DNA from: a virus
Taxonomy: Duplodnaviria > Heunggongvirae > Uroviricota > Caudoviricetes
IMG/VR virus record: IMGVR_UViG_2531839524_000004
Direction: 5' to 3' (one strand)
Length of the DNA: 64,000 nucleotides
In this document: piece by piece, positions 4,899 through 57,011 of the stretch
Layout: every line of letters begins with the position of its first letter
Numbering within the stretch: position 1 is the stretch's first letter
The notes under the pieces: model-generated
Databases searched by the model: none
What the model saw: the letters and a program-made list of their open reading frames with translations, nothing else
What the model was told of the DNA's origin: nothing
Program-made: the position numbers and the translations under genes

Positions 4899-4909
4899 AC
4901 AAGGATTTT

Positions 4910-7900
4910 TTGAACATGGAACAGTTCAAGAAGAAAAAGCTACCGCTGTTTATTGCCGGTGCGGGTGGTAAAAAAAGCAGCAAAAGCTCCAGTCGTACAC
5001 CGGTTGAAGCCGACGATACCGTAAATTCTCGTGCAATGGCCGCTATCCTCGATCTTCTTGGGGAAGGGGTAATTGGCGGCTTAGTAAATGGCGCAAGATC
5101 TATTTTTATCGACGATCTGCCGATTGTAAATGAAGACGGTTCCTCCAACTTCAGCGGAATCACATGGGATTTTCGCGACGGTTCACAAGACCAGACTCCA
5201 ATGTCTGGCTTTGATTTCGTTGAAACGCCTAAATCCGTCAATATCCAGTTAAAAAAAACACATTATGTAACGGTTTCAATCGATAACGATGAAGCTGATC
5301 GGGTTCGTGTCATCATGAAGTTTCCTTCTTTGCGAAGCATAGATAAAAAAACTGGTGACACGAACGGTACGACTGTTGAGTACAAGTTCCAGATAGCAAA
5401 TGGCGACTCAACATTTGTAGATGTGGTCGCGGAAGGGGAAAAAAGCGTTGGCATTAAGCTAACAGCAAAGAAGACCGGCGTTTATTACCGTAGCTATGAG
5501 CTGAAGCTGCCTAAGCCTGGACGCGCATACAAGGTTCGTGTAGTCCGTATTACCGATGATAACAGTAGCCAGTATCTCTATAACGATACATGGGTGGATT
5601 CAATCGGGGAAATTGTCGATACACCGATGAACTATCCAAACTCTGTTTTGGTTGGATTGAAGGTAAACTCTGAGCAATTCGGCAGCACCATGCCATCTCG
5701 CTCTTATCTGGTGCGTGGCCTAAAAATTCGAGTACCTTCAAACTATAACGAGTCCAGTAACACTTACGCTGGGGTATGGGATGGCACTTTTAAGCTGTTG
5801 TCTTCTTCGAACCCCGCGTGGATTCTCTTTGATTTGCTGACCAATGCTCGATATGGCCTTGGTCAGTATGTGTCGGAATCTATGATTGACCTTGGCCAGT
5901 TGTACCAGATTGGTCGATATTGTGACGAAGAGGTCGATGATGGCTTTGGTGGCAAAGAGAAACGCTTTGCAATCAATACGCAGATCACCAGTCGACAGGA
6001 CGCATACCGGCTAATTCAGGATATTGCTGGAGCATTCCGCGGCATGGTGTTTTGGGCTGGTGGGATGGTTAACATCATGCAGGATAGCCCATCAGATCCG
6101 GTAATGATGTTTACCAACTCTAACGTCAAAGATGGATTGTTTACCTATAAAGGTTCTGCGCGTAAAGATCGCCCATCCGTTGCGCTCGTAACCTACAACA
6201 ACAAGGAGGACGGTTATAAGCAAAACATCGAGTACGTTGAAGATCAGGACGCAATGCGCCGTTATGGTGAGCGTAAGACAGAAGTCGTAGCATTTGGCTG
6301 TACAAGCCGAGGGCAGGCTCACCGAGTTGGTTTATGGCTTTTATATACCGCCAGAATGGAGTCGGATGTAATTACATTTACTGCCGGCTTAGACGCGTCA
6401 TTTCTGATGCCTGGTGAAACCGTTCTGATTCAGAACAAATATCGCGCAGGCAAACGTAACTCAGGTCGAATTGTGGCGTTTACCAAAAACAGCGTCACAC
6501 TCGATGCGCCTGTGTCGTTAGCCAAAGGCGGCTGCTTTATTCGAATACTGAATCAGGAAGGCAAAATCGTTGAACGCGATGTTCTTGAAACTGGCGAAAA
6601 TATAACAAAAGTTACGTTTTCAAAAGCCCTGTCTTCGGCTGAAACGCCTGTTTTGAACGGCGTCTGGACTATTACAGAACCAGACCTCGAACCTATGCGC
6701 GTTCGCATCGTTAACATCGCGCAGGGGGAAACGCCGGGTAGCTTTGACATCACCGCTGTTGAGAACAATCCGTCTAAATATGAGGCGATCGACAATGGTG
6801 CAACGCTTATCCCGCAAAATACGACGGTATTGGACCCGACTTACTCCAAGCCGTCTAATTTGCAAATCACCGAAGGGACTTATCTCTCAAGCCCTGGCAA
6901 CCTGTCAGTAAAACTGACTGCAACATGGGAAGGGAAATCTCCAGAGTATTGGATCAGTTGGCGACGTTCTGATGAAAACAATGTATCGAACTGGCAATCG
7001 GCGCGTGTAACCGAAGAGCAATACGAAATCGTTAATGTTGCGGAGAATGGACGCTACGACTTCCAGCTGTATGCGGTTTCATTCAACGGTAAAAAAACAG
7101 AGATTATCAGTACCGTTTATCAGGTGCTGGGCACAATGACACCGCCAGATGCCCCAACGTCATTAACGGCCGTTGGAGACTATCGTAATGTGATACTGAA
7201 TTGGGTTAATCCAGATTCGGTAGACCTTGATCACATTAATGTTTACGCGTCCCAGACCAATAATCTGGATACGGCGAAACTGATCGCAGAGTCTGCAAGC
7301 ACCACCTTTACACATGCTGGTCTTGGGGATAGCGAAACGTGGTATTACTGGGTTCGAGCATCGAACAAGCGAGGTATGTTAAGTCCTCCGAACTCAAACT
7401 TGGGTACAGAGGCGACAACTCGCGATGTACTGTCGTTCCTGACTGGCAAAATTACATCTTCCGAGCTTGGTCAGGCTCTGCTTGAGGACATCAACAGCAA
7501 AGCCTCTCAAGAAGCCGTTGACGAGTTAAATGAGCATATCAACCAGAGCGTCGAATCTTTGGAGGGGGCGGTAAACGACGTTAAGGAAGATATAGCTGAA
7601 TTAGATAAGCAGTTCAGCGATAACCTCGCGGATTTTGAAATAAAATTCAACGAGCGTAGCGATGCTTTGGAGAACGCACAAACCGAGCTTAAAGGGGAGG
7701 TTTCGGCAACGATCGACAAGGTCAATGAAGCGTTTGAAAAAATTGATGCTACTGATGCTGCAATTGTTGAAATCGAAAATACAGTATCTGAACACGATAA
7801 AGCTCTCGCTAATACAGTCGAGGCAATAAAGGCTGCAAGAGATGAAGCGGCGGCTCTTATTGCTAAGGAAAGCGAGGCTCGTGTTGAAGGCGATGCTGCA

Positions 7901-9643
7901 AACGCTAAACAACTGGAAGTGTTGCAGTCAACGGTAGAGGAAAGCTCCGCTGCCGTTGAAGAAATGAAAAAGACGGTTGCAGAGGTCGATCGTGCAAGTG
8001 CAGAACTGACTACGAACATTGAGGCGTTAGCCAAAACAAATATTGACCTGGCTCTTCGTCAAGATGAAGACCAGCACAAGCAGATGGTCAATAACGCGAA
8101 GATCGCAACAACACAGAAAACCTTTGCTGATGATATGTCTGCAATGGCTACGAAGGTTGAAGAAATTCGCGTAGAAATTGGCGAAGACATTAAGGCCAGT
8201 ATTCTGGAAGAGTCCACCGCGCGTGCCGATGGCGATGAAGCGTTAGCAAAGCGTGTCACTCAGCTGCAATCTAAGTTTGAAGGAGATATCAGCGCGGCGA
8301 TTAGTACAGAACAGGAGGCTCGTACATCTGCCGATGAAGCTTTGACGAAACAAATAACTCAGCTTGAGTCGAAAGTAAGCAACGATATTGTCGCAGCCAT
8401 TAAGGAAGAGCAAGAAGCCCGAGCAACGGAAGATTCGGCTCTGGCAAGCCAGATCACCCAACTTCAGGCAAAAGTTGATGATGATATTTCTGCTGCAATA
8501 CGCAGTGAGCAGGAGGCTCGTGCGAGCGGAGACTCTGCGTTAGCTAAACAAATAAACCAGCTTCAAGCAAAGGTTGACGGTGATATATCCGCCGCCATCA
8601 CTCAGGAGCAGGAGGCCAGAGCAAGTGCTGACGAGGCGCTCTCACGAGAAATTAACAGCCTGCGGGCGCAGACCGGAACTGACATTGCCGCAGCCGTTGC
8701 TGTAGAGACAAAGGCAAGGACTGACGCTGATAGTGCATTGTCCAGCCAGATTACATCTCTTACAGCAAAAGCTAATGATCTCGAGGCGTCTCTTGCCAAA
8801 GAAACAACGGCTCGTGCAGATGGGGATACCGCTTTAACAAAAGAGGTTTCAAGTTTAAAAGCACAGACTGCGAAAGATATTAGTGCGGCCGTTGCAGTGG
8901 AAACGCAGGCTCGAACTGATGCTGACTCGGCGTTGTCATCTCAGATCACCAAGCTGACCTCTCAATACAAAGAGGATATTAAAGCGGCTGTGGCAACCGA
9001 AACGAAAACGCGTACAGAGCAAGATGCGGCATTGGCGACCCAAATCACAAACTTAGAGTCTCAAACAGCAGCCAACATTTCTGCGGCGGTCACAACTGAA
9101 ACGACAGCGAGAACGCAGGCAGATAATGCTCTAAGTGGGCGAATCGATACTCTGAAAGCAGAGGTGGATGGAAATACCGCGACAATTCAACAGCAGGCAA
9201 CAGCTATTGCTGATACCAACAAAAAAGTGTCAACCGCGTGGACGTTGAAAATGGAGACTTCAACGAGCGGAGGGCAGAAGTATGTTGCCGGTATTGCGCT
9301 TGGTATTGACACCACTGGGCTATCTCAGTTTTTGGTTCAGGCGGACAGGTTTGGTTTGGTCAACTCTGTCAACGGGAAGATCACCACGCCATTTGTTATC
9401 GAAAACAGTATTGCCTATATGAATGGTGCTTATATCAAGGATGGCACAATCACCAATGCAAAGGTAGGCGATCTGCAATCTACCAATTTTGTTAGCGGTA
9501 GATCTGGATGGCGATTCGGTAAAAATGGAACGCTTGAAATAAACGGTAATAGCGGCGGCAATGGGCGATTGGTCATTAATGGTCAGCGGATTGACGTTTA
9601 TGACGATAACAACGTCCTACGAGTAAGAATTGGCCGTCTGTGA
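4910..9643 (+). CDS. Tail tip / central fibre host-specificity protein (lambda gpJ-like) with an inserted coiled-coil repeat array
   Basis: 1577 aa following the K/I-like genes; large N-terminal region typical of gpJ-like proteins; C-terminal half holds tandem 33-aa repeats. Confidence 0.8.
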   Translation: MNMEQFKKKKLPLFIAGAGGKKSSKSSSRTPVEADDTVNSRAMAAILDLLGEGVIGGLVNGARSIFIDDLPIVNEDGSSNFSGITWDFRDGSQDQTPMSGFDFVETPKSVNIQLKKTHYVTVSIDNDEADRVRVIMKFPSLRSIDKKTGDTNGTTVEYKFQIANGDSTFVDVVAEGEKSVGIKLTAKKTGVYYRSYELKLPKPGRAYKVRVVRITDDNSSQYLYNDTWVDSIGEIVDTPMNYPNSVLVGLKVNSEQFGSTMPSRSYLVRGLKIRVPSNYNESSNTYAGVWDGTFKLLSSSNPAWILFDLLTNARYGLGQYVSESMIDLGQLYQIGRYCDEEVDDGFGGKEKRFAINTQITSRQDAYRLIQDIAGAFRGMVFWAGGMVNIMQDSPSDPVMMFTNSNVKDGLFTYKGSARKDRPSVALVTYNNKEDGYKQNIEYVEDQDAMRRYGERKTEVVAFGCTSRGQAHRVGLWLLYTARMESDVITFTAGLDASFLMPGETVLIQNKYRAGKRNSGRIVAFTKNSVTLDAPVSLAKGGCFIRILNQEGKIVERDVLETGENITKVTFSKALSSAETPVLNGVWTITEPDLEPMRVRIVNIAQGETPGSFDITAVENNPSKYEAIDNGATLIPQNTTVLDPTYSKPSNLQITEGTYLSSPGNLSVKLTATWEGKSPEYWISWRRSDENNVSNWQSARVTEEQYEIVNVAENGRYDFQLYAVSFNGKKTEIISTVYQVLGTMTPPDAPTSLTAVGDYRNVILNWVNPDSVDLDHINVYASQTNNLDTAKLIAESASTTFTHAGLGDSETWYYWVRASNKRGMLSPPNSNLGTEATTRDVLSFLTGKITSSELGQALLEDINSKASQEAVDELNEHINQSVESLEGAVNDVKEDIAELDKQFSDNLADFEIKFNERSDALENAQTELKGEVSATIDKVNEAFEKIDATDAAIVEIENTVSEHDKALANTVEAIKAARDEAAALIAKESEARVEGDAANAKQLEVLQSTVEESSAAVEEMKKTVAEVDRASAELTTNIEALAKTNIDLALRQDEDQHKQMVNNAKIATTQKTFADDMSAMATKVEEIRVEIGEDIKASILEESTARADGDEALAKRVTQLQSKFEGDISAAISTEQEARTSADEALTKQITQLESKVSNDIVAAIKEEQEARATEDSALASQITQLQAKVDDDISAAIRSEQEARASGDSALAKQINQLQAKVDGDISAAITQEQEARASADEALSREINSLRAQTGTDIAAAVAVETKARTDADSALSSQITSLTAKANDLEASLAKETTARADGDTALTKEVSSLKAQTAKDISAAVAVETQARTDADSALSSQITKLTSQYKEDIKAAVATETKTRTEQDAALATQITNLESQTAANISAAVTTETTARTQADNALSGRIDTLKAEVDGNTATIQQQATAIADTNKKVSTAWTLKMETSTSGGQKYVAGIALGIDTTGLSQFLVQADRFGLVNSVNGKITTPFVIENSIAYMNGAYIKDGTITNAKVGDLQSTNFVSGRSGWRFGKNGTLEINGNSGGNGRLVINGQRIDVYDDNNVLRVRIGRL
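8186..9174 (+). repeat. Ten tandem 99-bp (33-aa) repeats inside the gpJ-like gene
   Basis: Repeat units such as 'DISAAISTEQEARTSADEALTKQITQLESKVSN' and 'DIVAAIKEEQEARATEDSALASQITQLQAKVDD' recur in-frame. Confidence 0.75.
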
Positions 9644-9736
9644 TGGTGGAAAAAAAATTTTATATCGGTAAGAATAGGTAAGTACTTACTTAATGGCGGG
9701 CAAGGATAGCCCGCCAAATCAAGGAGCATATTCAAC

Positions 9737-13645: not shown

Positions 13646-13848
13646 TTTAGGGATTATTTATATGGCTGTGTGGTTTAAAAATGCGATTTCACAGCCGCAA
13701 TCATAGGGATATATTAGTGAGTTACTAGATGCGAATATGAACAACCGTTAAACGGTATATGTATAGGTAGGTAAGTATATACCTACAATTAAAAGGAGAA
13801 GTGTGATATAAATCCGCCATCCCGATTTGACTTTTCACGGAGGAAAAC

Positions 13849-18635: not shown

Positions 18636-18909
18636 TATTGCATCTCTTTGCTACTGACTAATGCGTTCTATTTTACACATAAGTTTTTAATCAATTTAAC
18701 AGGCTCAAAGTGTAGAGCTTCTGGGCGTCTAAGACGACAAGTTAGCCTGCTTCTGTATATATAAATAATAAGTAACTTATTAAATATATATACGGAAGCA
18801 GGTCTTTTAAAAGACACCACCAGAACAACTCCCTTCCGTTTCCACTTCCAAAAACTGCCACCAGTCGCTATCATCCGCTCATTGTGATAAGTAAGTAACT
18901 ACCTACCAG

Positions 18910-23335: not shown

Positions 23336-23516
23336 TTTTGGATTTTCACAAGATGGTTAGGTGGTTGTGGCTACTCGGTGTAAGGCTTTGTAATCACCGA
23401 TTGGTAAGGTTACTTCAATTTAGCTTAACTGTCAGCATACCCAATCGCCGAAAAGATAAGTAGATGATTACTTATTAGTGTGTAAGAATACTGCCATCTG
23501 TTAGCTAGGAGTTGGT

Positions 23517-26967: not shown

Positions 26968-27202
26968 AAACATATTGATAAGTATTTACTTACTTATCTT
27001 TTGTGTATAAGATGACTTTGTTTTCGTTGAGACGCGACTGTTTGAACTTAAATACAAGTGCAAACGAAGAAGTCTATCTGGCAGTAGCCTAATAAGCCAA
27101 ACACCAGCGAGGTCAGTTTCCAGCCTCGTTACCGAAATGGGACACACTGAGCGAGTGGGATTGCAGAACGCAGGAGGGAACATTCATGTTCCCTCCGATG
27201 AA

Positions 27203-29751: not shown

Positions 29752-29925
29752 GTATGTATTTCACTCTACTAACTATAAAATATTAGGCTAATGTTAACCA
29801 AACAATGCCTTAATTAATAGATTGATCGAGGCTTTAATAGCTTTATAATGCAGACTGTAAAGATAAGTATGCACATACCTATCTTCTTTGTAAGTAAAGT
29901 TGCATATCAATTCTATGAGGTAACA

Positions 29926-41181: not shown

Positions 41182-41298
41182 TTTTTGATAGATAATAAGT
41201 AAGTACTGATCTATCATTTAGCAGCTCGAAAGAGTCACGAATGAACGAAAGCCCAACGCGCATAGCGCCATCGGCCAAATCACAACAAGGAGAAACAC

Positions 41299-43600: not shown

Positions 43601-44674
43601 ATGGCAAAAGGAAAATCCGCACTGGCACTTGCTCTGAAAAAGAAAATCGGTAGCAACGACGAAATTCAGAAAGTAACTCATTGGATTGATACAGGCTTTC
43701 CACCGTTAAACAAAGCTATTTCTGGTCGTTACGATGGCGGCTTCCCATGTGGTCGTATCGTCGAAGGATTCGGTCCTCCAAGTGCAGGGAAAACGTTCCT
43801 TGCAACAGCAGCGATGATCTCCGCTCAAAAACAAGATGGTCTGGCGGTATTCCTCGATCATGAAAACAGTTTTGACGTTGGCCTGGCTGTAGCCAATGGC
43901 CTGAACGCAGATGAGGATGACGGTCAGTGGGTATACAAGCAGCCTGATACCTTCGAAGACTCTGTAGAGTTGATCGGCACAATTCTTAAATTGGTACGTG
44001 ATGAAGAGCTTATTCCTGAATCAGCACCTATCTGTATCGTGGCTGACTCACTTGCGTCTATGGTTCCGAACTCCAAAGCCGAGAAGTTCGAAAAGATGGC
44101 TGAAGGCACTGCCAAAGACAAAGATCAGCTAAACATGAACGACAATACGGCACTGGCTCGTGCGACAAGTGCGAACTTCCCTACTCTGGCTTTGTGGGCA
44201 CGCAAATACAACGCCTGCATCATCTTCTTGAATCAGGTTCGCACAAAAATCGGTGTAATGTTTGGCGACCCTACTACGTCGCCAGGTGGAGATTCACCGA
44301 AGTTCTACGCTTCTGTACGTATCCGTCTTGGTGCATCGGTGATGAAGGATGGTAAAGAGAAGATCGGCCAGGACGTAGGCGCAGAATGCATCAAAAACAA
44401 AGTTGCACCACCGTATGGCAAATGCACCTGGAAATTCTACTTCGATCCTACTCGTGGCCTCGACGTTATCGAATCGCTCGTCGAGTACATGCTGGAAGAA
44501 GGATACCTGCCAAAGAACGCCAGCGGGCGAGTTGAAATTGGTGACAAGAAATACACCAAATCGCAGATCGTCGAGATGTATCGGGAGAAGCCACTGGCTG
44601 AAATCATTGCGGCTTTGCAGGCAATCGACGACCGAAGAGCAAAAGACAACCCCACCGAGTCAGTAGAAGAGTAA
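43601..44674 (+). CDS. RecA/UvsX-family recombinase
   Basis: 'GRIVEGFGPPSAGKTFLA' closely parallels the RecA Walker A region; 'ICIVADSLASMVP' is Walker B-like. Confidence 0.75.
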   Translation: MAKGKSALALALKKKIGSNDEIQKVTHWIDTGFPPLNKAISGRYDGGFPCGRIVEGFGPPSAGKTFLATAAMISAQKQDGLAVFLDHENSFDVGLAVANGLNADEDDGQWVYKQPDTFEDSVELIGTILKLVRDEELIPESAPICIVADSLASMVPNSKAEKFEKMAEGTAKDKDQLNMNDNTALARATSANFPTLALWARKYNACIIFLNQVRTKIGVMFGDPTTSPGGDSPKFYASVRIRLGASVMKDGKEKIGQDVGAECIKNKVAPPYGKCTWKFYFDPTRGLDVIESLVEYMLEEGYLPKNASGRVEIGDKKYTKSQIVEMYREKPLAEIIAALQAIDDRRAKDNPTESVEE

Positions 44675-44766
44675 ACACAAGGCGTCCACAGGACGCCTTT
44701 TTTATCTCTTGAAAATATATAAGTACTTACTTATTATTTTCGCATAACAACCACATAGGAAAACAC

Positions 44767-44967
44767 ATGATCAAAATCTATCTATTGGCAGTAGCCACAG
44801 GCCTTTCAGTGGCTCTCATCTACGGTTTACTGGTTCCGTCGCTGATTTCTACCAAGAGTGATTTAGCCGTCATGTTTGGAGTTATCGTTGGTTTTGGTGC
44901 TCCTGTAATCGGTCTTATTGCTGGTCGTAAGTTTATCAACTCATTAATCAAAGCAAAGGGGAAATAA
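44767..44967 (+). CDS. Small two-TM membrane protein
   Basis: 66 aa, two hydrophobic segments; immediately upstream of the SPFH gene. Confidence 0.45.
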   Translation: MIKIYLLAVATGLSVALIYGLLVPSLISTKSDLAVMFGVIVGFGAPVIGLIAGRKFINSLIKAKGK

Positions 44968-44970
44968 GTA

Positions 44971-45801
44971 ATGAAGAAAGGTTTACTTGCAGTTGCTCTG
45001 GCGGCTATTTGCACAATGGGTCTTACTGGCTGTGATCGCGTGGAGCCTGGATACGTTGGCATCAAAGTAAACAAATTAGGTGAAGACAAAGGGATCGGTG
45101 AAGTGGTTGGCGTTGGTCGCCAATGGACAGGTCTTAACACCGAACTTTACGTATTCCCGACCTTCAAACAAATGAAGACCTACGACGAACCGTTCACATT
45201 CCAGATGAGTGACGGTACTGCTATTGGTCACAAAATTGGCGTTGCGTATCTGGTTAATCGTGACAAGGTAACGACGGTGTTCCAGACCTATCGCAAAGGC
45301 GTAGACGATATCACCGAATCAGATCTGCGTCAGAAAATTGCCGACTCTCTAAACCGTTTGGCCAGCCGTATGACCACTGACTCATTTATCGACGGTGGTA
45401 AGGCGCAATTGCTGGACAACGCACTGAAAGATATTCAGAAAGAGATGTCTCCGGTTGGTATTGAGGTACTGAGCCTGTCATGGGTTGGAAAGCCTGATTA
45501 CCCAAAAACCGTCATTGAATCTATCAACGCCAAAGTAACGGCTAACCAGCGTACTCTGCAACGTCAGCAGGAAGTTGAACAGCGTAAAGCTGAGGCGAAT
45601 ATGCTACGTGAACAGGCTAATGGTGAAGCTGATGCTATCCGTGCTCGTGCGCAAGCAGAAGCCGACGCCATTCGTCTGCGCGGTGAAGCTCTGCGTCAAA
45701 ACCCGAACGTTATGGAGCTGGAAGCCATCAATAAATGGAATGGCCAGTTACCGCAGTACATGACTCAAGGGGCTAACACTCCTTTCATTACAGTGAAATA
45801 A
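44971..45801 (+). CDS. SPFH/band-7 (stomatin/HflC-like) lipoprotein
   Basis: Signal peptide with lipobox 'LTGC'; SPFH-like core; C-terminal Ala/Glu/Arg/Gln-rich coiled coil 'EADAIRARAQAEADAIRLRGEA'. Confidence 0.7.
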   Translation: MKKGLLAVALAAICTMGLTGCDRVEPGYVGIKVNKLGEDKGIGEVVGVGRQWTGLNTELYVFPTFKQMKTYDEPFTFQMSDGTAIGHKIGVAYLVNRDKVTTVFQTYRKGVDDITESDLRQKIADSLNRLASRMTTDSFIDGGKAQLLDNALKDIQKEMSPVGIEVLSLSWVGKPDYPKTVIESINAKVTANQRTLQRQQEVEQRKAEANMLREQANGEADAIRARAQAEADAIRLRGEALRQNPNVMELEAINKWNGQLPQYMTQGANTPFITVK

Positions 45802-45896
45802 CTCTCATTAAGAAGATCAGGCGTCCAGTTGGACGCCGTTTTATTCTCGTTATTATCACACACAAGAAAACAATTTGTTAAAAGGTTAAGTTAATT

Positions 45897-46721
45897 ATGC
45901 CCAACCACATTACAAACGAAATCCGAGTCATAGGTGGTACAAATAAACAACGCTTAGATTTCATACGTGCCATAACTAACAAAAAAGGTCTAATTGACTT
46001 TAATACCATTTGCAGACGTCCGAAAAGTATAGAAATGGAAGAAAACAATCATATCAGGCGCATGGCCTCTGCAATGGCGGGCGAAACAGTTTACGACCAC
46101 ATGTTCGGTGAATTAAAGACTCCAGAACAGGTCGAATTAGCTATGCGTGAATCAGGAATGACACGCAAGGAAATTCGCAAAATCAAAGAGCAGGCTCTTA
46201 TGCGGCTTGAGAATTATCGTCGCTATGGCTATTACTCATGGTTTGACTGGTCGCGAGCTAATTGGGGAACAAAATGGAATGCCTACAACATCGAAATGCC
46301 CGTAAAACGTATCCCTACACGTATTAAGTACGGCCATAATTTCCGCCATACACACGTTCGAGCATATGCAAAACGAATCTATAAAAAACGTCTTGCAAGA
46401 CATGCCGCAACTGGTAGTGAGTTGGTGATTCGCTTTGAAACAGCCTGGTCTATGCCAAAACCAATTTATCAAGAGATGGCTAGAAAGTTCCCGCACCTTG
46501 AGTTTGTAATACGTTATGCAGACGAAGACTTCGGCAATAACTGCGGATTCATTTTACTTCGCAACGGCAAATGGGAATATGACTACATTGCACCGGCGAA
46601 TAACAAACAATCGTCAGAAGAAAAAATCAAATGGCGCAAGTTCGCCTTTGAGTTATGTTGTCCTGGTATCACTCCACAAGAATACGGTCTAAATGAAGAA
46701 TACGAATACGCCGGATATTAA
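45897..46721 (+). CDS. Hypothetical protein
   Basis: 274-aa ORF; Trp/Tyr-rich segment 'YSWFDWSRANWGTKWNAYN'; preceded by the AACAATTTGTT motif. Confidence 0.5.
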   Translation: MPNHITNEIRVIGGTNKQRLDFIRAITNKKGLIDFNTICRRPKSIEMEENNHIRRMASAMAGETVYDHMFGELKTPEQVELAMRESGMTRKEIRKIKEQALMRLENYRRYGYYSWFDWSRANWGTKWNAYNIEMPVKRIPTRIKYGHNFRHTHVRAYAKRIYKKRLARHAATGSELVIRFETAWSMPKPIYQEMARKFPHLEFVIRYADEDFGNNCGFILLRNGKWEYDYIAPANNKQSSEEKIKWRKFAFELCCPGITPQEYGLNEEYEYAGY

Positions 46722-46768
46722 AAAAAATTGTCATTTAGCTTTACGCATGAAGCATAGAGGTTAATAAG

Positions 46769-47509
46769 ATGAAAAGAAAAATTGAAGAACCAAAAACGAC
46801 CCTTAATAAACATGGGGAAAAAATTCAAACACATCCAGCGTTCGGTCTTGTGAAAACAAGCCGTGTTAGCACAACTGGCATTCGCCTATTTGATTCAGAA
46901 CTGGAACATAGAGACTATATTGAAATAGGCGTTTACGAGGCGGAACTGTCCTTAGACAATGAACGAACCCGCCCACAAAGAAGTTGCAATAGACGGCCTT
47001 TAGTTGAAATTAGACTTAGCCAGGCACAATGGGCTGCTATGGTTAGCAGTTTTGGAGTGGGCGAAGGTGTGCCATGCACTATTTCATATAAAACCATTGG
47101 AGACTCAATTAGAGTTCATGATATTGCCGAGCAAAAAAGTATTCGGCAAAAATTCAACGATCAAATAAAGGCCGCTACGAATAGTGAGATTGATCGACTT
47201 AATCAGCAAGTTTCAGAGCTAGGTGAACTTGTGAAAAAAGGAAGAGCTGGAAAACGTGACCTTGAAGAACTATATAGAAAACTAGCATCTGCTGTAGCTA
47301 ACCTTCCTGAAAATCTGTGCTTTGCTACCGAATTAATGCAGGAACAAATGGATGAAATTGTCTCATCTGGAAAGGCGGAGATTGAGGCGTATGTTGCGGG
47401 CACGGTTATGCGTAAAGGGTTAGCAGCATTAGGCACAGAATCATGCATTAACGATGATCCTACTGTCTCTATCACCAAAATGGAAAGCGGTAAAGAATTA
47501 CTGCCATAA
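46769..47509 (+). CDS. Hypothetical protein
   Basis: 246-aa ORF; no motif recognised. Confidence 0.5.
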   Translation: MKRKIEEPKTTLNKHGEKIQTHPAFGLVKTSRVSTTGIRLFDSELEHRDYIEIGVYEAELSLDNERTRPQRSCNRRPLVEIRLSQAQWAAMVSSFGVGEGVPCTISYKTIGDSIRVHDIAEQKSIRQKFNDQIKAATNSEIDRLNQQVSELGELVKKGRAGKRDLEELYRKLASAVANLPENLCFATELMQEQMDEIVSSGKAEIEAYVAGTVMRKGLAALGTESCINDDPTVSITKMESGKELLP

Positions 47510-47529
47510 ATGCATCTGAGGTACTGACA

Positions 47530-47919
47530 ATGTTTTTAATTCAACCTGGGTTCGGTTTAAAGATAAAAAAAGGGCATATGTTTGGTGAGCGAGATTCCAA
47601 ACGAAAAATTCTGTCTATTCGATTACCATTTATCACCATTCATTGGTTAAACAGAGAGTCAACCGATTATTGGTATAAATGCGCAAGAGCAGCATTTAAC
47701 GACCCTGACTGGTTTGTAGAAAATCACCACGCGGTTCGTCAGGCAAAAAGAAAGGCTAATACGACATATATGAAGGCATATCAGGATGCCTGGGAAGAAC
47801 ATCGTGGCCGATACCAAAAAAACATTGAAAAACTTGAATCAGAAAATATGGACCTAAGAAGAAAACTCGGTGAAGCACGTCGAGACATCGAAGCATATAA
47901 ACGTCTTGTATCGGAGTGA
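47530..47919 (+). CDS. Hypothetical protein
   Basis: 129-aa ORF with basic/coiled-coil C-terminus. Confidence 0.4.
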   Translation: MFLIQPGFGLKIKKGHMFGERDSKRKILSIRLPFITIHWLNRESTDYWYKCARAAFNDPDWFVENHHAVRQAKRKANTTYMKAYQDAWEEHRGRYQKNIEKLESENMDLRRKLGEARRDIEAYKRLVSE

Positions 47920-47980
47920 ATATATCTTTGCTTTATTTTTTCAAAGGTGATTATTTTCCTATTTATAAGGAGAAGTAAAC

Positions 47981-48406
47981 ATGGCAGCAATTAAGAAACT
48001 CTACGATGCCGCAAACGCGGCTCTGGATGTTATTGATGATGAAGTATCAAAAGGCTTTCCTGAACCTGATTGGGCGCATCAGCTACGAAACGCTATCGCA
48101 GAAATGACCCCATCAGATCCAACCCCCGACGAGACAAACTGGCAGCGATTCATCCGTATGTACGCTCAGGAAATAGGTCCAACGCCAACGGCAGAGCAGG
48201 CAATGCTGCTGAAATACTTCAAAGAGGCGGGAGAGGATTTACCAATTGATGACTCAGCATATTGGTTCCACTGCGCATGGCGTAAGTATGACGTGATATT
48301 CACACAAGGCATGGGAAGCAAAGATATGGTTGTGTGGCATCTACTCCATATAGACACAGCCGTTGACAGAGTTATTGAACAGTTTTTCCCTAACCAAGAA
48401 GATTGA
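47981..48406 (+). CDS. Hypothetical protein
   Basis: 141-aa ORF. Confidence 0.45.
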   Translation: MAAIKKLYDAANAALDVIDDEVSKGFPEPDWAHQLRNAIAEMTPSDPTPDETNWQRFIRMYAQEIGPTPTAEQAMLLKYFKEAGEDLPIDDSAYWFHCAWRKYDVIFTQGMGSKDMVVWHLLHIDTAVDRVIEQFFPNQED

Positions 48407-48461
48407 TCGCCTATTCATAACTAACAAAATAAGTAAACACTAACCACAAAAGGAAAAACAC

Positions 48462-48737
48462 ATGAGAGTTTTAGTTCGAATCGTTACCAGCACTGTCTAT
48501 GACGTGTTTCCGCTTTTTATGGTCAAAGTCGATGGCCTTAACGATGAAGAAACTGACGCGCTGATCCAGCGTATTCTCGTTGAATATACAGGTCATGACG
48601 CTGATTCAGTGATGGTTGATGATGATGGTGTTTGTTGGCATAACGGCAACTGTTGGTACGTAGAAGAGACTCAACAAATCAGTGATGAAGATGCCGCACA
48701 TCTTGAGCGTATTTTAAGCATCAGCACTTTTGAGTGA
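48462..48737 (+). CDS. Hypothetical protein
   Basis: 91-aa acidic ORF preceded by the AAAGGAAAAACACATG initiation context. Confidence 0.4.
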   Translation: MRVLVRIVTSTVYDVFPLFMVKVDGLNDEETDALIQRILVEYTGHDADSVMVDDDGVCWHNGNCWYVEETQQISDEDAAHLERILSISTFE

Positions 48738-48777
48738 GTTTACAGTAAAATTTATATAAGTTAGTATCTACCTATCA

Positions 48778-48957
48778 TGAAGATTTTTATTGAATACTTG
48801 TTACTCATCGTTTCAATAGCTTTTGTCATCGACTGCATTTTCACCGGTGTCATTCGTAAAGTCTTTTCCCCGGTGAACGACGTAGTCATAAACGCTTTGG
48901 CTATCGTGCTCGTATTTAATTCAGCATTTGATCTAATCAAAGAGGTGGCAGCATGAA
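48778..48957 (+). CDS. Small membrane protein (59 aa; below the ORF-track cut-off)
   Basis: 'MKIFIEYLLLIVSIAFVIDCIFTGVI...' read directly from the sequence; overlaps the start of the next ORF. Confidence 0.3.
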
Positions 48958-49288
48958 GGCCATCCCATTCGCGCTGTTGTTCCTTTCTTCGATCGTTGTG
49001 GCCGACACCACTGTTTATCAGTGTGAAATGTCTGTAGCCGACGTTAAGAATGGCGCTCTTACCGACGTCATAAAAGCACCATATGGAGCGATGGTCGTAG
49101 ACAGCGGCGACCAGTTCTATGTTGTGCGTGACGATCGAGTGTTGTCATCCCCATATCTCACAAATCGTAATGGCAAATTAACCGGCGTCGGAGAAGACCA
49201 CTTCGTATACAACAAATACAAGGGCTTCTATGGCGTTCACGCTTCTCAGCAAAGCTACCTTTTCGATGACTGCAAGGAGGTTGGGTAA
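48953..49288 (+). CDS. Small secreted protein
   Basis: Signal peptide 'MKAIPFALLFLSSIVVA'; 111 aa. Confidence 0.45.
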   Translation: MKAIPFALLFLSSIVVADTTVYQCEMSVADVKNGALTDVIKAPYGAMVVDSGDQFYVVRDDRVLSSPYLTNRNGKLTGVGEDHFVYNKYKGFYGVHASQQSYLFDDCKEVG

Positions 49289-49500
49289 TGGCATTAACAC
49301 TGGCAGGTCTGGAAATCGAGAAAACAAGCGGCTACTGGCGTGCTAAGGGTTTCAAGCAGCCTGGCATTCTTGAGCGTCTGGAACGTGAAGATGGGTATAT
49401 CGTCCACCAGCGGCGTGAATGGCGTATGTACGATCCAGAAACAGGAAAACTGACTACAAAAGCCGGAACACTTTGGGGTCTGTTGAAGAAAATACACTAA
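49288..49500 (+). CDS. Hypothetical small protein
   Basis: 70-aa ORF overlapping the previous stop. Confidence 0.35.
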   Translation: MALTLAGLEIEKTSGYWRAKGFKQPGILERLEREDGYIVHQRREWRMYDPETGKLTTKAGTLWGLLKKIH

Positions 49501-49546
49501 ATGCAAACTGACTGCGGCTCGTTCCGCAGTCATATTTCATAGTCGT

Positions 49547-50081
49547 CACCGCTGACAGCATACACAATCAACTACCGCTGATAGCATATCGAGAGTCTAT
49601 CTCACCGCTCACAGCATACTTTACTCGATTTTTTACCGCTGACAGCATACTTAAGAAATTGCATGAATAATGTGTCCCAGTATGGGTATAACCAGAACAA
49701 AATTACCGCTGGCAGCATACGAATGTCTGACATATACCATTAATTACCGCTGATAGCATATCCAAACAAAAATTCCTCAATAAAACACCGCTGACAGCAT
49801 ACGTTCTATCAGGGAGTAGCAGGCAATAAATGCCTTTCACTACAAGCAATCAGCGCAATAGCAATAGAATGTTAGTGAGCGCAAACCTATATGGAATGCA
49901 CTCTTCGAGGTTAGTAACCACTGGGGAGGTATGACAGAGCATTGAGTGGTGATAGATGATTTACCGCTCACAGCATACGTTCATCTCACTATACCGCTGG
50001 TAGCATATCTTTAACCGTTCACAGCATACTTTTCAGAAAAATAGCCGCTGATAGCATACATTTCACCGCTGACAGCATATC
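49547..50081. repeat. Array of 12 iterons (17-19 bp, consensus (T/C)ACCGCTGACAGCATAC) downstream of repA
   Basis: Copies start near 49547, 49573, 49603, 49634, 49704, 49745, 49786, 49961, 49992, 50013, 50043, 50064; spacing is irregular and copies carry point variants. Confidence 0.85.
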
Positions 50082-51294
50082 AAAGCAGTTTGAGACTATT
50101 GGAAAGGATCTCAATCATCTTGATATTTTCAGGCGTCAAATTCTGCGAAAGTTCGGTTATCTTGTTGATAATGTTCTGTTTGGCATCAATTTCCCCAGCT
50201 TTCTCATCTGGTTTTTTGGGTTCGATGTCTTCAGGTTTTGGCGGTGCGACTTTGAGTTTTGGATTGCGGCTGTGAATCTGGATATAGATCGACCGCCCAC
50301 GCTTAATCTCGCTGTATTCGAGATAGCCCAAATCTTGGAGAGCTTTTAAGCCGTTACGTATAGTCTGATTCTGCGAGCTGACATTCCTGCTACTCAAATT
50401 GAGTCGCGCACGCAATCGAGCAAGCGATACCGGCGCAGGCTTGGTTGGAAGACTTTCGATGAAGGTGTACAGAGCCTGTGCTGTTTCTTTGCGTGGTAGC
50501 TTATTGATAACCTTTAACTGCAAAAGAACCTTATGGTCAAAGCGATATAGTTCGGCCAGCTTCGGTTCTGCATAGAACACCACCGTATCTTTCTGCTCGT
50601 TGTAGTCCACGCTATTGATGAGGTGCACCATCAGAAGCGAGATCTTGTTAGAGCCGTCGACGTTCTTTTCTTCATACGTTCTCTGGAAAGACAGAGTTGT
50701 ACGCATGATCTTCAAAAGACTGTTTGTAAGCCGGTCGCGGAGTGTTTTGCGGATCTGTGACGATGGATAGCCACAAAACTTAGCAAATTTCGTGATGCTT
50801 AACTCGACACGACCGTTAGGTTCGCCGTATTCTGCCAGCGAACGCACAACGCCCACCCACGTTTTGAAATCATGATCCATGTCGAGACGAGGACCGGTTA
50901 TCTTGATATCGGAATAGCCTTCAGAACGGGCTACTTCGAGCTGGACAAGCTCCTTTGAAGCATCGATCTCATTTGGCTTGTTACGTTTACTGTATTTTGT
51001 TCCCTTAAGCGTGGGGACGAACAACCCCAGTCGCATCAACGCAATTGGTTGGACTGTATTGTTGCTATTAGGGACAAGTTCCCCTGTGTACAATTCAAGG
51101 GAACCTTCTTCAAAGTTGTCGATGTTATCTTCTACTTCTTTGTTATTTTTACCTTTTTTATTTTTTGTGGACATGTGGACACCTTTGTCATTCAACCGCT
51201 GACAGCATACTTGATTTGCCGCTGACAGAATACCAAAAACAGTTGGCAGCATACGGTGAACCGCTGACAGACTATCAATTACCGCTGACAGCAT
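50080..51294 (-). CDS. repA: Replication initiator protein (iteron-binding RepA-type)
   Basis: 404-aa protein whose gene is bracketed by iterons on both sides, overlapping its start and stop; a P1 RepA-like arrangement. Confidence 0.7.
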   Translation of the reverse strand: MLSAVIDSLSAVHRMLPTVFGILSAANQVCCQRLNDKGVHMSTKNKKGKNNKEVEDNIDNFEEGSLELYTGELVPNSNNTVQPIALMRLGLFVPTLKGTKYSKRNKPNEIDASKELVQLEVARSEGYSDIKITGPRLDMDHDFKTWVGVVRSLAEYGEPNGRVELSITKFAKFCGYPSSQIRKTLRDRLTNSLLKIMRTTLSFQRTYEEKNVDGSNKISLLMVHLINSVDYNEQKDTVVFYAEPKLAELYRFDHKVLLQLKVINKLPRKETAQALYTFIESLPTKPAPVSLARLRARLNLSSRNVSSQNQTIRNGLKALQDLGYLEYSEIKRGRSIYIQIHSRNPKLKVAPPKPEDIEPKKPDEKAGEIDAKQNIINKITELSQNLTPENIKMIEILSNSLKLL

Positions 51295-51495: not shown

Positions 51496-52140
51496 ATGGA
51501 TCTAAAACGCACGCGCTGGGTTCGTCGTCTTGAAGACGGCTCCTACACTATCGAATCAAATTCCAACCTGAATAAGCAGAAGTTGCTTTGTGACATCTGC
51601 GGTATAGCGGCGAAGTGCCCGATCTACGAAACCAGAATTAAACTTGATAAGGCTGGTGTGAATTTTCATTTAAACAGTTGCATCAGGTACGTTCCATTAC
51701 TCGCATTTCGTAAACCGATCATCGGATTGGATGCTCCCTACTTCAACACACTCCGTTCAGGTGTGACGTGGCGAGATCGTTTATCACCAGACAAGCTGAT
51801 TTGCCTCGTATCCGCAGACACAGGGAAAATCATCCGTTTTGGGAAAGTAGACAAGGTTTACTCAGGCCCAGTAGACGAAATGTTGCGGAAACACAGCCGG
51901 TTTAATCATCTCTGTATGGGTGGTGAGAAAATCGAGAAGGTAGAAGAAGTGATCCGCAAATCCTACGGACACTTTCTGACCAAAGATAGCCTGCTCACCG
52001 CAATCTACATCAGACATGTAAAACGTGAGTTCGACCTCGAATACCACAGCGAAGAAGAGCTTAACCTTGTTGACCCACGTCCAAAAGCTGGCGTCATAAG
52101 CATAAACGCAGCGCGTAAAAAGCCCACTGACGCGCTGTAA
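51496..52140 (+). CDS. Hypothetical protein
   Basis: 214-aa ORF adjacent to the replicon; no motif recognised. Confidence 0.5.
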   Translation: MDLKRTRWVRRLEDGSYTIESNSNLNKQKLLCDICGIAAKCPIYETRIKLDKAGVNFHLNSCIRYVPLLAFRKPIIGLDAPYFNTLRSGVTWRDRLSPDKLICLVSADTGKIIRFGKVDKVYSGPVDEMLRKHSRFNHLCMGGEKIEKVEEVIRKSYGHFLTKDSLLTAIYIRHVKREFDLEYHSEEELNLVDPRPKAGVISINAARKKPTDAL

Positions 52141-52394
52141 CCCTCCAGATCGTATATTGGCGTAGATAGAATCTACGCCTCCTCAAAATAGCTCTCATAG
52201 CGTTCTACAGTGATTCTGTCTTATTTTTAGTCATATAGACAAGCAAACTTGCGCCACAATAAATAGGTATATACTTACTTATAAATTTTGTATATTAAGG
52301 CGCTCGTTTCATTCCTAACATACCGTTATGCATAGTTGTTTACCTCATCATTGCTCTTAGAATTTGTATCAAAATAACCACAAAGGAAAAATAC

Positions 52395-56938: not shown

Positions 56939-57011
56939 TTTCATTGATAGGTAAGTGCTTATCTATTAACATGGGCCACTATATTTAGTGGCCCTCTTTA
57001 TTTGGTGATAC

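What the first reader, a model, noticed from the sequence alone, without database searches (positions are those of the whole stretch)
45897..49500. Block of eight same-strand hypothetical genes immediately upstream of the replicon
Eight plus-strand ORFs of 59-274 aa, tightly packed, several with the shared initiation context and one with a signal peptide (48953-49288). None carries a motif I recognise. Such blocks in phages are typically early host-takeover or anti-defence genes, the class in which new anti-restriction or anti-CRISPR-type functions are usually found.
Basis: inference. Interest (0 to 1): 0.4.

Follow-up and report, generated by a model that had tools for sequence, protein, structure and literature searches.

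The report
Accessory gene block of SSU5-like phage-plasmid
The eight genes are real but are not one unit: they are a swappable cassette of phage accessory genes of unknown function, followed by a conserved, separately switched three-gene operon (a membrane protein, a secreted barrel protein and a small basic protein) that sits beside the replication origin of a common enterobacterial phage-plasmid.

Summary
Observation confirmed. All eight plus-strand ORFs exist at the stated coordinates, are tightly packed, match PHROG families and are under purifying selection. The window is an SSU5-family phage-plasmid, 99.5% identical to E. coli O104:H4 and Shigella sonnei plasmids.

The block is not one unit.
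- O1-O3 are a low-GC cassette found in only 25 of about 190 Escherichia/Shigella relatives. O1 is a YubB/DUF1281 protein. O2 belongs to a family found in early-gene arrays of virulent phages. O3 is a lambdoid nin-region gene.
- O4 (DUF7238) and O5 are small acidic proteins. They lie behind a terminator, have no detected promoter, and are silent in lysogen RNA-seq of a relative.
- O6-O7-O8 are the conserved core, kept next to the iterons even in Klebsiella relatives. They have their own strongly conserved promoter, overlapped by a palindrome that recurs eight times in the window. Their homologues rise about 60-90-fold in stressed lysogens.
- O7 is a lineage-restricted periplasmic beta-barrel. 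O8 is a homologue of P1 Cra.

No ORF matches a known defence, anti-defence or structural family. The early, non-structural reading is partly supported. The anti-defence reading is untested. Functions remain unknown, and overall interest is modest.

The parts
44709..44737 (+). Context: promoter-like site (TTGAAA-17-TATTAT) of the upstream TM-protein + SPFH operon. The palindrome TAAGTACTTA lies in its spacer.
   Evidence: This is the best sigma-70 match in the region, 10 of 12. It is fully conserved in SSU5, pMT1 and AnCo3. It scores as a weaker copy of the dispersed palindrome. The Cyrano homologues CYRAN_56/57 are co-induced with the O6-O8 homologues.
45820..45837 (+). Terminator-like hairpin after the SPFH gene; the upstream boundary of the block.
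   Evidence: GGCGTCCAGTTGGACGCC followed by GTTTTATT. In Cyrano, expression drops from log2 7.3-7.4 (CYRAN_57) to 3.9-4.2 (CYRAN_58) across the equivalent site.
45897..46721 (+). O1: YubB/DUF1281 (Api92-like) ferredoxin-like-fold protein, basic (pI 9.5). Part of the variable cassette.
   Evidence: Pfam DUF1281_C scores 58.8 bits against a cut-off of 22.8. phrog_12644, E 1e-105. 847 homologues, some named YubB/DUF1281. Invariant motifs are MPNH (N-terminus), DFN..P.P, NWGTKWNAY, TAW and ADED.G.N.G. pN/pS is 0.30 against AnCo3.
46769..47509 (+). O2: N-terminal beta domain (motifs THPAFG and LSxAQWAxxVSS..GxGVPCT) plus a long helical hairpin. Part of the variable cassette.
47530..47919 (+). O3: lambdoid nin-region gene (sits between ninE and ninF in HK630 and Stx phages). 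Part of the variable cassette.
   Evidence: 82% nucleotide identity to Stx and lambdoid phages. Position in the HK630 nin region. phrog_1511. pN/pS is 0.21. Absent from Salmonella AnCo3, which has O1 and O2.
47981..48406 (+). O4: DUF7238 protein, acidic (pI 4.5).
   Evidence: Pfam DUF7238 scores 129.9 bits against a cut-off of 27. The core domain occurs in 414 phage records, mostly virulent enterobacterial myoviruses, e.g. RB49 gp83 in the tk-rI region. pN/pS is 0.17. The Cyrano homologue is silent in all five RNA-seq conditions.
48462..48737 (+). O5: small, very acidic protein (pI 4.15; 19 D+E against 5 K+R).
   Evidence: phrog_2209 over the full length. Charge data. pN/pS is 0.21-0.22. Reduced to a truncated remnant in a Klebsiella relative.
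48739..48776 (+). Promoter-like site of the O6-O8 operon: TTTACA-17-TAGTAT, overlapped by the palindromic element ATAAGTTAGTATCTACCTAT. The ATG lies 9 nt after the -10 hexamer, so the mRNA would be nearly leaderless.
   Evidence: Promoter scan and sequence. The O5-O6 intergenic stretch shows 92% mean column identity across Cyrano, SSU5, E. hormaechei and pMT1, while the coding DNA is about 73% identical. The same arrangement is kept in a Klebsiella relative. The motif has 8 copies in the window against 0.07 expected and is palindromic. O6 has no SD.
48777..48956 (+). O6: 59-aa membrane protein with two hydrophobic segments.
   Evidence: Mean Kyte-Doolittle hydropathy over 19 residues peaks at 2.68, with 20 windows above 1.6. 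phrog_2535. The 4-nt overlap with O7 (ATGA) suggests translational coupling. 46% identical in the Klebsiella relative, with the hydrophobic pattern kept.
48953..49288 (+). O7: secreted (periplasmic) all-beta barrel protein with two invariant cysteines (C24, C107).
49288..49500 (+). O8: small basic protein (pI 9.6), homologue of phage P1 Cra. The most conserved gene of the block.
   Evidence: phrog_804. 43.5% identity to P1 Cra over 62 aa, E 1e-4. 93-96% aa identity to SSU5, pMT1 and Enterobacter although pS is 0.59-0.66, giving pN/pS 0.05-0.07. 84% identity in Klebsiella.
49509..49532 (.). Bidirectional hairpin that ends the O6-O8 unit and separates it from the iterons and repA.
   Evidence: TGACTGCGGCTCGTTCCGCAGTCA is found on both strands. 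The iterons start about 15 nt further on.

Best explanation
The block is the mosaic accessory region of an SSU5-family phage-plasmid. It consists of two different things.

(1) O1-O5 lie behind the intrinsic terminator of the SPFH operon, and I could detect no promoter of their own. O1-O3 fill a cassette slot that in relatives is empty, holds ninX, or holds other combinations. O4 and O5 are small acidic proteins. Their homologues elsewhere sit in nin regions or in arrays of small early genes. I infer that these genes are dispensable accessory genes. They would be transcribed only by read-through during lytic development, and their biochemical roles are unknown.

(2) O6-O7-O8 is a conserved, translationally coupled operon. 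It has its own sigma-70-type promoter, and the -10/+1 region of that promoter is overlapped by a palindromic operator-like element that recurs across the genome. The operon is off in the unstressed lysogen and is strongly derepressed when the prophage switch is perturbed. It makes a small inner-membrane protein, a disulfide-bonded periplasmic beta-barrel and a highly constrained basic cytoplasmic Cra-like protein.

My best guess at the mechanism, which is inferred and not shown, is an early envelope-directed function. O6 and O7 would act at the inner membrane and periplasm to block a periplasmic enzyme or an incoming phage. That would be superinfection exclusion or inhibition of a peptidoglycan hydrolase, analogous to T4 Imm/Sp. 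O8 would be a cytoplasmic regulator or partner.
For: Identity of the element.

Real genes under purifying selection.

Variable slot:
- O1-O3 are present in 25 of about 190 Escherichia/Shigella relatives. The slot is empty in Cyrano and most E. coli relatives, holds ninX in SSU5, pMT1 and Enterobacter, and holds O1-O2-ninX in AnCo3.
- The breakpoints fall at the region just upstream of each start codon.
- GC is 0.39-0.42 for O1-O3 and 0.406 for 46-48 kb, against 0.44-0.49 for most of the rest of the window.

Early-array or nin context of homologues.

Two transcription units:
- Terminators at 45820-45837 and 49509-49532, and a promoter at 48739-48767.
- The intergenic promoter/palindrome is nearly invariant across relatives with saturated synonymous sites.
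- The palindrome occurs 8 times against 0.07 expected, and all eight copies are intergenic.

Expression, from PMC9928086 S1 Table:
- CYRAN_58 (O4) stays at log2 2.3-4.2 in all conditions.
- CYRAN_60/61/62 (O6-O8) are at 2.3-3.8 in LB and reach 8.3-9.0 at 6 h in macrophages.
- The neighbouring recA, exonuclease and sbcCD genes stay at about 2.4-4.8.
- The cro-side gene CYRAN_46 reaches 10.8.
- At 1 h, O6-O8 (6.0-7.4) are already above the capsid gene (4.0).

Core status of O6-O8: a Klebsiella relative lacks SPFH, O4 and O5 but keeps O6-O8 with the promoter, next to repB.

O7 is an exported beta-barrel.
Against: - There is no functional experiment for any of the eight genes.
- The RNA-seq comes from a relative that lacks O1-O3. 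It was done in macrophages and DMEM, not as a phage-induction time course, so stress-specific (moron-like) expression cannot be separated from partial prophage derepression.
- No transcription start site has been mapped. The absence of a promoter upstream of O1 and O4 rests on a simple consensus scan.
- The protein that binds the palindrome is unknown. No copy scoring above 12 was found between the predicted repressor and cro-side genes.
- O6 and O7 have no detectable homology to T4 Imm or Sp.
Confidence: 0.6

Rival explanations
1. One reading: the block, or at least O1-O5, encodes early anti-defence or host-takeover proteins, such as DNA-mimic anti-restriction proteins or inhibitors of other immune systems.
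For: - O1-O3 sit in a hot-swappable slot, which is typical of counter-defence islands.
- O2 and O4 families are widespread in early-gene arrays of virulent phages.
- O4 and O5 are small and very acidic, pI 4.5 and 4.15, as many DNA mimics are.
- O1 has invariant acidic and N-terminal motifs that suggest an enzyme.
- The O4 and O5 homologues are silent in the lysogen.
Against: - No match to any known defence family.
- No match to Rad.
- DefenseFinder found no anti-defence gene other than Rad in 1227 SSU5-group contigs, and none at all in the Salmonella elements, which include AnCo3-type elements carrying O1, O2 and O4-O8.
- No solved-structure relatives by sequence.
- O2's broad host range, from Actinobacteria to Proteobacteria, argues for a phage-intrinsic role rather than a host-specific target.
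- Acidity alone is weak evidence.
Confidence: 0.25
2. O6-O8 are lysogenic-conversion (moron) genes that benefit the bacterial host inside phagocytes. For example, O7 could be a periplasmic inhibitor of host lysozyme of the MliC/PliC/PhiA type.
For: - The homologues rise about 60-90-fold in LF82 inside macrophages, where Cyrano virions were not detected above background.
- The family is carried by plasmids of pathogenic lineages: Y. pestis pMT1-type, Salmonella plasmids carrying the widespread O6::O7 fusion, and AIEC pLF82.
Against: - The genes are at the noise floor in LB and were not scored as morons.
- Capsid, tail, integrase and cro-side genes rise in the same samples. That fits partial prophage derepression better than a dedicated host-benefit regulon.
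- The structural scores are in the range of unrelated small barrels, and Foldseek TM-scores are about 0.4.
- No MliC Pfam signal in any of the 14 family members.
Confidence: 0.12
3. O6-O8, and especially the Cra-like O8, are accessory factors of the plasmid replicon, acting in copy-number control, dimer resolution or coupling of replication to the envelope.
For: - The trio is invariably adjacent to the iterons and repA/repB, even in a Klebsiella relative that has lost SPFH, O4 and O5.
- O8 is the most constrained protein, with pN/pS 0.05-0.07.
- In P1, cra lies directly upstream of cre. Cre/lox is a plasmid-maintenance function (established knowledge).
Against: - A bidirectional hairpin separates O8 from the iterons.
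- In Cyrano, RepA is expressed constitutively at log2 6.6-8.3 while O6-O8 are off in LB, so the plasmid is maintained without them.
- P1 cra is non-essential for plaque formation.
- A periplasmic barrel protein is an unlikely replication factor.
Confidence: 0.1
4. The genes are late or virion-associated (structural or assembly) proteins.
For: None specific. Some late genes also rise in the macrophage samples.
Against: - No PHROG, Pfam or NCBIfam structural annotation.
- The block lies between the recombination/replication module and the replicon, far from the head, tail and lysis genes.
- O6-O8 rise before the capsid gene.
- Homologues sit in early or nin regions.
Confidence: 0.03

Closest known systems
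nin region of lambdoid phages (lambda, P22, HK630)
   Same: A run of small, dispensable, same-strand genes. It lies downstream of the replication/recombination genes and behind a terminator, and it is mosaic gene by gene. O3 is a direct homologue of the HK630 gene between ninE and ninF. ninX occupies the same slot in SSU5, pMT1 and AnCo3.
   Different: Only O3 (and ninX in relatives) is homologous to a nin gene. No N/nut or Q-type antitermination has been shown here. The block ends at a plasmid replicon rather than at Q and the late operon.
T4 Imm and Sp (spackle) superinfection-exclusion pair
   Same: A small inner-membrane protein paired with a small signal-peptide periplasmic protein. Both are expressed early and not in a quiescent state. 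Sp works by inhibiting a tail-associated lysozyme. (These properties of Imm and Sp are established knowledge, not tested here.)
   Different: No sequence similarity was found. As far as I recall, Sp is helical, whereas O7 is predicted to be all-beta. This is a functional analogy only, and exclusion by O6/O7 is untested.
MliC/PliC/PhiA/ACP periplasmic lysozyme and peptidoglycan-hydrolase inhibitors
Phage P1 Cra (cre-associated function)
   Same: O8 is a full-length homologue: same PHROG, and 43.5% identity over 62 of 70 residues. Both are small and basic and sit next to plasmid-maintenance functions.
   Different: The function of Cra is unknown, and it is non-essential in P1. Here the gene is the last cistron of an operon with two envelope proteins and abuts iterons, not cre/lox.
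YubB / DUF1281 (Api92-like) ferredoxin-like-fold proteins
   Same: O1 passes the Pfam DUF1281_C threshold and shares the family's invariant motifs.
   Different: No function is known for the family. O1 carries a basic insert of about 45 residues (roughly 131-175) that most distant members lack.
Dispersed C1 operators of phage-plasmid P1
   Same: A short conserved element is repeated at many intergenic sites around a phage-plasmid genome and overlaps promoters, including the promoter of O6-O8. (The P1 C1 logic is established knowledge.)
   Different: The sequence is unrelated and palindromic (ATAAGTAAGTA..TACCTAT). The binding protein is unidentified, and repression has not been shown.

Membership tests
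Pfam DUF1281_C / YubB ferredoxin-like (O1) | Sequence match above the curated gathering score | tested here: met
   58.8 bits against a cut-off of 22.8, residues 171-242. Homologues are named YubB/DUF1281 by UniRef.
Pfam DUF1281_C / YubB ferredoxin-like (O1) | Relationship to the solved Api92 structure | tested here: not met
   Neither phmmer nor a 34-sequence profile search of PDB sequences returned an Api92-like chain at E<=1. The fold of O1 was not modelled.
Pfam DUF7238 (O4) | Sequence match above the gathering score | tested here: met
   129.9 bits against a cut-off of 27, covering 111 of 112 profile positions.
P1 Cra family (O8) | Full-length sequence homology to P1 Cra | tested here: met
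   tblastn gives 43.5% identity over residues 8-69, E 1e-4, to P1, P7, RCS47 and SJ46 cra. phrog_804, E 6.5e-34.
P1 Cra family (O8) | Position directly upstream of cre | tested here: not met
   O8 is followed by a hairpin, iterons and repA. There is no cre-like gene adjacent.
Lambdoid nin-region genes (O3) | Homology to, and synteny with, a gene between ninE and ninF | tested here: met
   81-82% nucleotide identity over 390 nt to 30+ lambdoid and Stx phages. HK630_055 lies between ninE and ninF.
MliC/PliC lysozyme inhibitors (O7) | Exported small beta-barrel fold | tested here: inconclusive
MliC/PliC lysozyme inhibitors (O7) | Sequence signature of the family (Pfam MliC model) | tested here: not met
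   No MliC hit for any of the 14 family members at E<=10, and none for O7 at E<=0.1.
MliC/PliC lysozyme inhibitors (O7) | Inhibition of lysozyme | not testable with these tools
   Needs purified protein and an enzyme assay.
T4 Imm/Sp-type superinfection exclusion (O6/O7) | Membrane protein plus periplasmic protein, expressed early | tested here: inconclusive
   The architecture is met. Expression is off in the lysogen and derepressed under stress in a relative. No timed infection data exist.
T4 Imm/Sp-type superinfection exclusion (O6/O7) | Homology to Imm or Sp; exclusion phenotype | not tested
   No direct comparison was run. The exhaustive profile search for O7 returned only its own small family.
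Known anti-defence proteins | Homology to Rad, the only anti-defence gene reported in SSU5-group phage-plasmids | tested here: not met
   SP15 ORF75 (189 aa), searched by tblastn against the whole window, gave only noise, E>=4.7.
Known anti-defence proteins | Match to curated anti-defence models (DefenseFinder or dbAPIS type) | not testable with these tools
   No such library was available here. A published DefenseFinder v1.3.0 screen found none other than Rad in SSU5-group contigs.
Known anti-phage defence systems | Match to PADLOC models | tested here: not met
   The only hits were E 0.007-0.017, about 12 bits, and partial.
Virion structural proteins | Match to structural PHROG or Pfam families, or location in the morphogenesis module | tested here: not met
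   All eight PHROG categories are 'unknown function'. The block lies between the recombination genes and the replicon.

The most novel reading that the evidence does not exclude
O6-O7(-O8) could be a previously undescribed early envelope module that is conserved beside the replicon of every SSU5-family phage-plasmid examined, including Y. pestis pMT1-type plasmids and AIEC pLF82. A nearly leaderless operon would be held off by a palindromic operator that recurs around the genome. When derepressed, it would place a small membrane protein and a lineage-restricted periplasmic beta-barrel in the envelope. There they would block superinfecting phages or neutralise a peptidoglycan hydrolase. This could also protect the bacterium inside macrophages.
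Probability: 0.15. Interest if true: 0.55.

Novelty: new member of a known kind. Interest (0 to 1): 0.3.

Why it matters
SSU5-family phage-plasmids are common in E. coli, Shigella, Salmonella, Klebsiella, Enterobacter and Y. pestis. They are increasingly tracked as carriers of resistance genes, yet this region is annotated only as 'hypothetical protein' in more than 400 public records.

Splitting the region into two parts narrows the problem. One part is a swappable cassette slot. The other is a conserved, separately regulated envelope operon. This tells experimenters which genes to test for counter-defence (O1-O5) and which for exclusion or envelope functions (O6-O8).

It also points to a candidate genome-wide operator that could explain how this phage-plasmid family switches its early genes on. 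None of this is surprising in kind, because mosaic accessory regions are the rule in temperate phages.

Tried and rejected
1. Sequence searches of O1, O2 and O4 against PDB chains, and profile searches for the O1 and O2 families. These returned only noise or coiled-coil matches.
2. NCBIfam and PADLOC scans of all eight ORFs. Nothing significant.
3. Literature searches for DUF1281, YubB, Api92 and DUF7238. No functional information.
4. My recollection that YubB/DUF1281 is a leading-region gene of conjugative plasmids. tblastn found O1 homologues in only 47 plasmids, and 43 of these are non-mobilizable. I dropped the idea.
5. The idea that one of O1-O3 is Rad. The carriage frequency (about 13-16%) and the S. 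sonnei association looked similar. I rejected it because O1 and O2 have the wrong phage distribution and SP15 Rad has no match in the window.
7. The AFDB Foldseek library was unavailable.
8. An Rfam scan of 44-53 kb found no RNA family.
9. A LexA box at the O6 promoter. I found none by eye in the sequence.
10. One preprint on phage-plasmid copy number could not be retrieved.

Full report
WHAT THE WINDOW IS. The 3.6-kb region is 99.4-99.5% identical to plasmids of about 109 kb from E. coli O104:H4 2009EL-2050, other E. coli and Shigella sonnei, and to 'Escherichia phage CMS-2020a'. Its right half is 98.5% identical to phage-plasmid Cyrano (pLF82) and about 75% identical to Salmonella phage SSU5. 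The window is therefore part of an SSU5-family phage-plasmid. The upstream genes are UvsY-like, gp32-like SSB, a 5'-3' exonuclease and a RecA-like recombinase (43601-44674), followed by a small membrane protein and an SPFH/stomatin-like protein (44767-45801). Downstream lie 12 iterons, repA/repB on the minus strand (50080-51294), an ASCH protein and SbcCD.

OBSERVATION. All eight plus-strand ORFs are present at the stated coordinates. They are tightly packed, with gaps of 47, 20, 61, 55, 39, -4 and -1 nt. Seven have a Shine-Dalgarno-like context and O6 has none. They are real genes:
- Each matches a PHROG family end to end, E 1e-31 to 1e-105, and every family is of 'unknown function'.
- Each shows purifying selection against diverged relatives. 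pN/pS is 0.05-0.30 for O1-O5, O7 and O8. O6 is 0.19-0.22 against SSU5-type relatives and 0.55 against the Klebsiella relative. Synonymous sites are near saturation.
- Minus-strand ORFs in the region are short and fully overlapped. Rfam finds nothing.

THE BLOCK IS A MOSAIC. Comparison with relatives shows a cassette slot between the SPFH terminator and O4.
- The slot is empty in Cyrano and in about 150 E. coli plasmids.
- It holds ninX (DUF2591) in SSU5, Y. pestis pMT1-type plasmids and Enterobacter.
- It holds O1-O2-ninX in Salmonella AnCo3.
- It holds O1-O2-O3 in this window and 24 other records, and O1-O2-O3-ninX in E. albertii and some E. coli.

The breakpoints lie in the short regions just upstream of the start codons. 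O1-O3 are AT-richer than most of the window: GC is 0.39-0.42, and 0.406 for 46-48 kb, against 0.44-0.49 over most of the rest. O3 is a recent import. It is 82% identical at the DNA level to the gene between ninE and ninF of HK630, VT1-Sakai and many Stx phages.

At the other end, a Klebsiella relative lacks SPFH and O4 and retains only a remnant of O5. It still keeps O6-O7-O8 next to repB. O6-O8 are therefore the conserved core, O4-O5 are common but dispensable, and O1-O3 are cassettes.

THE INDIVIDUAL PROTEINS.
- O1 passes the Pfam DUF1281_C (YubB/Api92-like ferredoxin-like) threshold. It has 847 detectable homologues. The family alignment shows an invariant N-terminal MPNH plus the motifs NWGTKWNAY, TAW and ADED.G.N.G, which looks enzyme-like. 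No function is known. By tblastn it occurs mainly in other non-mobilizable plasmids of about 100 kb and in a few phages.
- O4 is a DUF7238 protein. Its core domain occurs in 414 phage records, mostly virulent enterobacterial myoviruses, for example RB49 gp83 in the tk-rI region.
- O4 and O5 are acidic, with pI 4.5 and 4.15.
- O6 is a 59-residue protein with two hydrophobic segments.
- O8 is a homologue of P1 Cra, with 43.5% identity over 62 residues and the same PHROG. It is the most constrained gene of the block: 93-96% amino-acid identity where synonymous sites differ at 59-66%. P1 cra is non-essential and its function is unknown.

TRANSCRIPTION UNITS. A terminator-like hairpin follows SPFH (45820-45837), and a bidirectional hairpin follows O8 (49509-49532). 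The consensus scan found no plus-strand promoter-like site upstream of O1 or O4. The only one within the O1-O5 stretch lies inside O2 (46894-46921).

Directly upstream of O6 there is a promoter-like site, TTTACA-17-TAGTAT (48739-48767), with the ATG 9 nt after the -10 hexamer and no SD. This implies a nearly leaderless mRNA, which is an inference. The 40-nt intergenic stretch shows 92% mean column identity across Cyrano, SSU5, E. hormaechei and pMT1, whereas the flanking coding DNA is only about 73% identical. The same arrangement is kept in the Klebsiella relative, where O7 is only 59% identical.

The -10/+1 part of the promoter belongs to an 18-20-nt palindromic element with consensus ATAAGTAAGTA..TACCTAT. 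It occurs 8 times in the window against 0.07 expected, always between genes. A weaker copy lies in the spacer of the conserved promoter of the upstream TM-SPFH operon.

EXPRESSION DATA FROM A RELATIVE. Published RNA-seq of E. coli LF82 carrying Cyrano (PMC9928086, S1 Table) gives these log2(fpkm+5) values:
- The O4 homologue is 2.3-4.2 in all five conditions.
- The O5 homologue is 2.9-5.7.
- The O6, O7 and O8 homologues are 2.3-3.8 in LB, 6.0-7.4 at 1 h in macrophages and 8.3-9.0 at 6 h.
- The TM-SPFH genes rise to 7.3-7.7.
- The adjacent recA, exonuclease and sbcCD genes stay at about 2.4-4.8.

In the same samples the gene on the cro side of the putative repressor reaches 10.8, the integrase 10.3 and the capsid gene 7.4-7.8 (4.0 at 1 h). 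None of the O4-O8 homologues was scored as a moron in LB. Cyrano is induced 39-fold by ciprofloxacin, but its virions were not detected above background in macrophages.

This pattern fits the two palindrome-bearing promoters being switched on together, with O4 and O5 insulated between a terminator and the O6 promoter. It cannot separate partial prophage derepression from a stress-specific response. Cyrano also lacks O1-O3.

TESTS OF THE ANTI-DEFENCE READING. PADLOC gives no match. A recent survey reports Rad (anti-retron) as the only anti-defence gene in SSU5-group elements. It is present in 16-22% of Escherichia/Shigella elements and in no Salmonella element. That frequency resembles the frequency of O1-O3, so I retrieved Rad (SP15 ORF75, 189 aa) and searched the window. 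There is no match. The phage distributions of O1 and O2 also differ from that of Rad. Salmonella elements such as AnCo3 carry O1, O2 and O4-O8 and scored zero in that survey, so those genes are not recognised by current anti-defence models. This does not exclude new anti-defence functions. It only means there is no positive evidence.

INTERPRETATION. What is shown:
- Gene reality.
- Family assignments: DUF1281_C, DUF7238, a nin-region gene and a Cra homologue.
- The mosaic structure.
- Conservation of the O6 promoter and palindrome.
- The dispersed motif.
- The predicted beta-barrel fold of O7.
- The expression pattern in a relative.

What is inferred:
- O1-O5 are read-through, lytic-phase accessory genes.
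- The palindrome is an operator.
- The O6-O8 mRNA is nearly leaderless.
- O6 and O7 act in the envelope, most plausibly in superinfection exclusion or inhibition of a periplasmic hydrolase, by analogy with T4 Imm/Sp and MliC/PliC-type inhibitors.

The rival readings cannot be excluded and are scored separately: anti-defence for O1-O5, host-beneficial lysozyme inhibition for O7, and replicon accessory functions for O8. A structural role is very unlikely.

VERDICT. In kind it is ordinary: a mosaic accessory region of a well-known phage-plasmid family, present in hundreds of public records. The more useful results are the split into a cassette slot and a conserved, separately regulated envelope operon, and the candidate genome-wide operator. 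Interest is 0.3. Novelty: new member of a known kind.

Noticed in passing
window 9674-9691(-), 13769-13786(+), 18889-18906(+), 23456-23473(-), 26978-26995(-), 29865-29882(+), 48758-48775(+), 52263-52280(-); weaker copies at 44715-44736, 56947-56966, 2755-2774 and 41195-41214: A dispersed palindromic element, consensus ATAAGTAAGTA..TACCTAT. It has 8 strong copies against 0.07 expected, and all are intergenic. Two of them overlap conserved promoters. It is a candidate genome-wide operator of the phage-plasmid's early genes, similar in logic to the C1 operators of P1. The binding protein is unknown.
   Followed up: partly
window 52140-52290, minus strand: A second near-perfect copy of the O6-type promoter/palindrome points leftward between the ASCH gene and sbcD. 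It is conserved in Cyrano, SSU5 and pMT1. It is followed by only a 9-codon mini-ORF and a hairpin, so it may drive a short non-coding or antisense transcript.
   Followed up: partly
protein P0200 (Salmonella enterica; seen on 1000 or more contigs, the counting cap): An in-frame deletion fuses the first hydrophobic segment of O6 to the barrel of O7, replacing O7's signal peptide. This widespread Salmonella variant may therefore make a membrane-anchored version of the protein.
   Followed up: no
L001 (Cyrano) 8000-8020: In Cyrano, which lacks O1-O3, the O4 homologue has no ATG and is annotated with an ATT start. It is also the least expressed gene of the region. It may be poorly translated or decaying there.
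   Followed up: no
L001 (Cyrano) 4450-6789, compared with window 43601-44674: Cyrano's annotated RecA gene is 2340 nt, against 1074 nt here. This suggests an insertion in the recombinase gene of that relative, possibly an intein or homing element.
   Followed up: no
L012 (Klebsiella phage ST13-OXA48phi12.3) 2790-4050: This relative goes from the recombinase almost directly to O6-O8. SPFH and O4 are absent, and only a truncated O5 remnant remains, preceded by another palindrome copy.
   Followed up: partly
window 45897-45910 (O1 N-terminus) and alignment A5: The N-terminal Met-Pro-Asn-His is invariant or nearly so (M, P, N in all, H in at least 90%) across 34 diverse YubB/DUF1281 proteins, together with an ADED motif. 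A processed N-terminal proline acting as a catalytic residue, as in the tautomerase superfamily, is a speculative possibility.
   Followed up: no
window 45852-45881, minus strand: A good sigma-70-like site (TTAACA-18-GATAAT with an extended TG, 10 of 12) points leftward from just upstream of O1 into the SPFH terminator hairpin. Its significance is unknown.
   Followed up: no
whole window: Rad, the anti-retron gene reported in 16-22% of Escherichia/Shigella SSU5-group elements, has no tblastn match in these 64 kb. If this plasmid has it, it lies in the part outside the window.
   Followed up: yes
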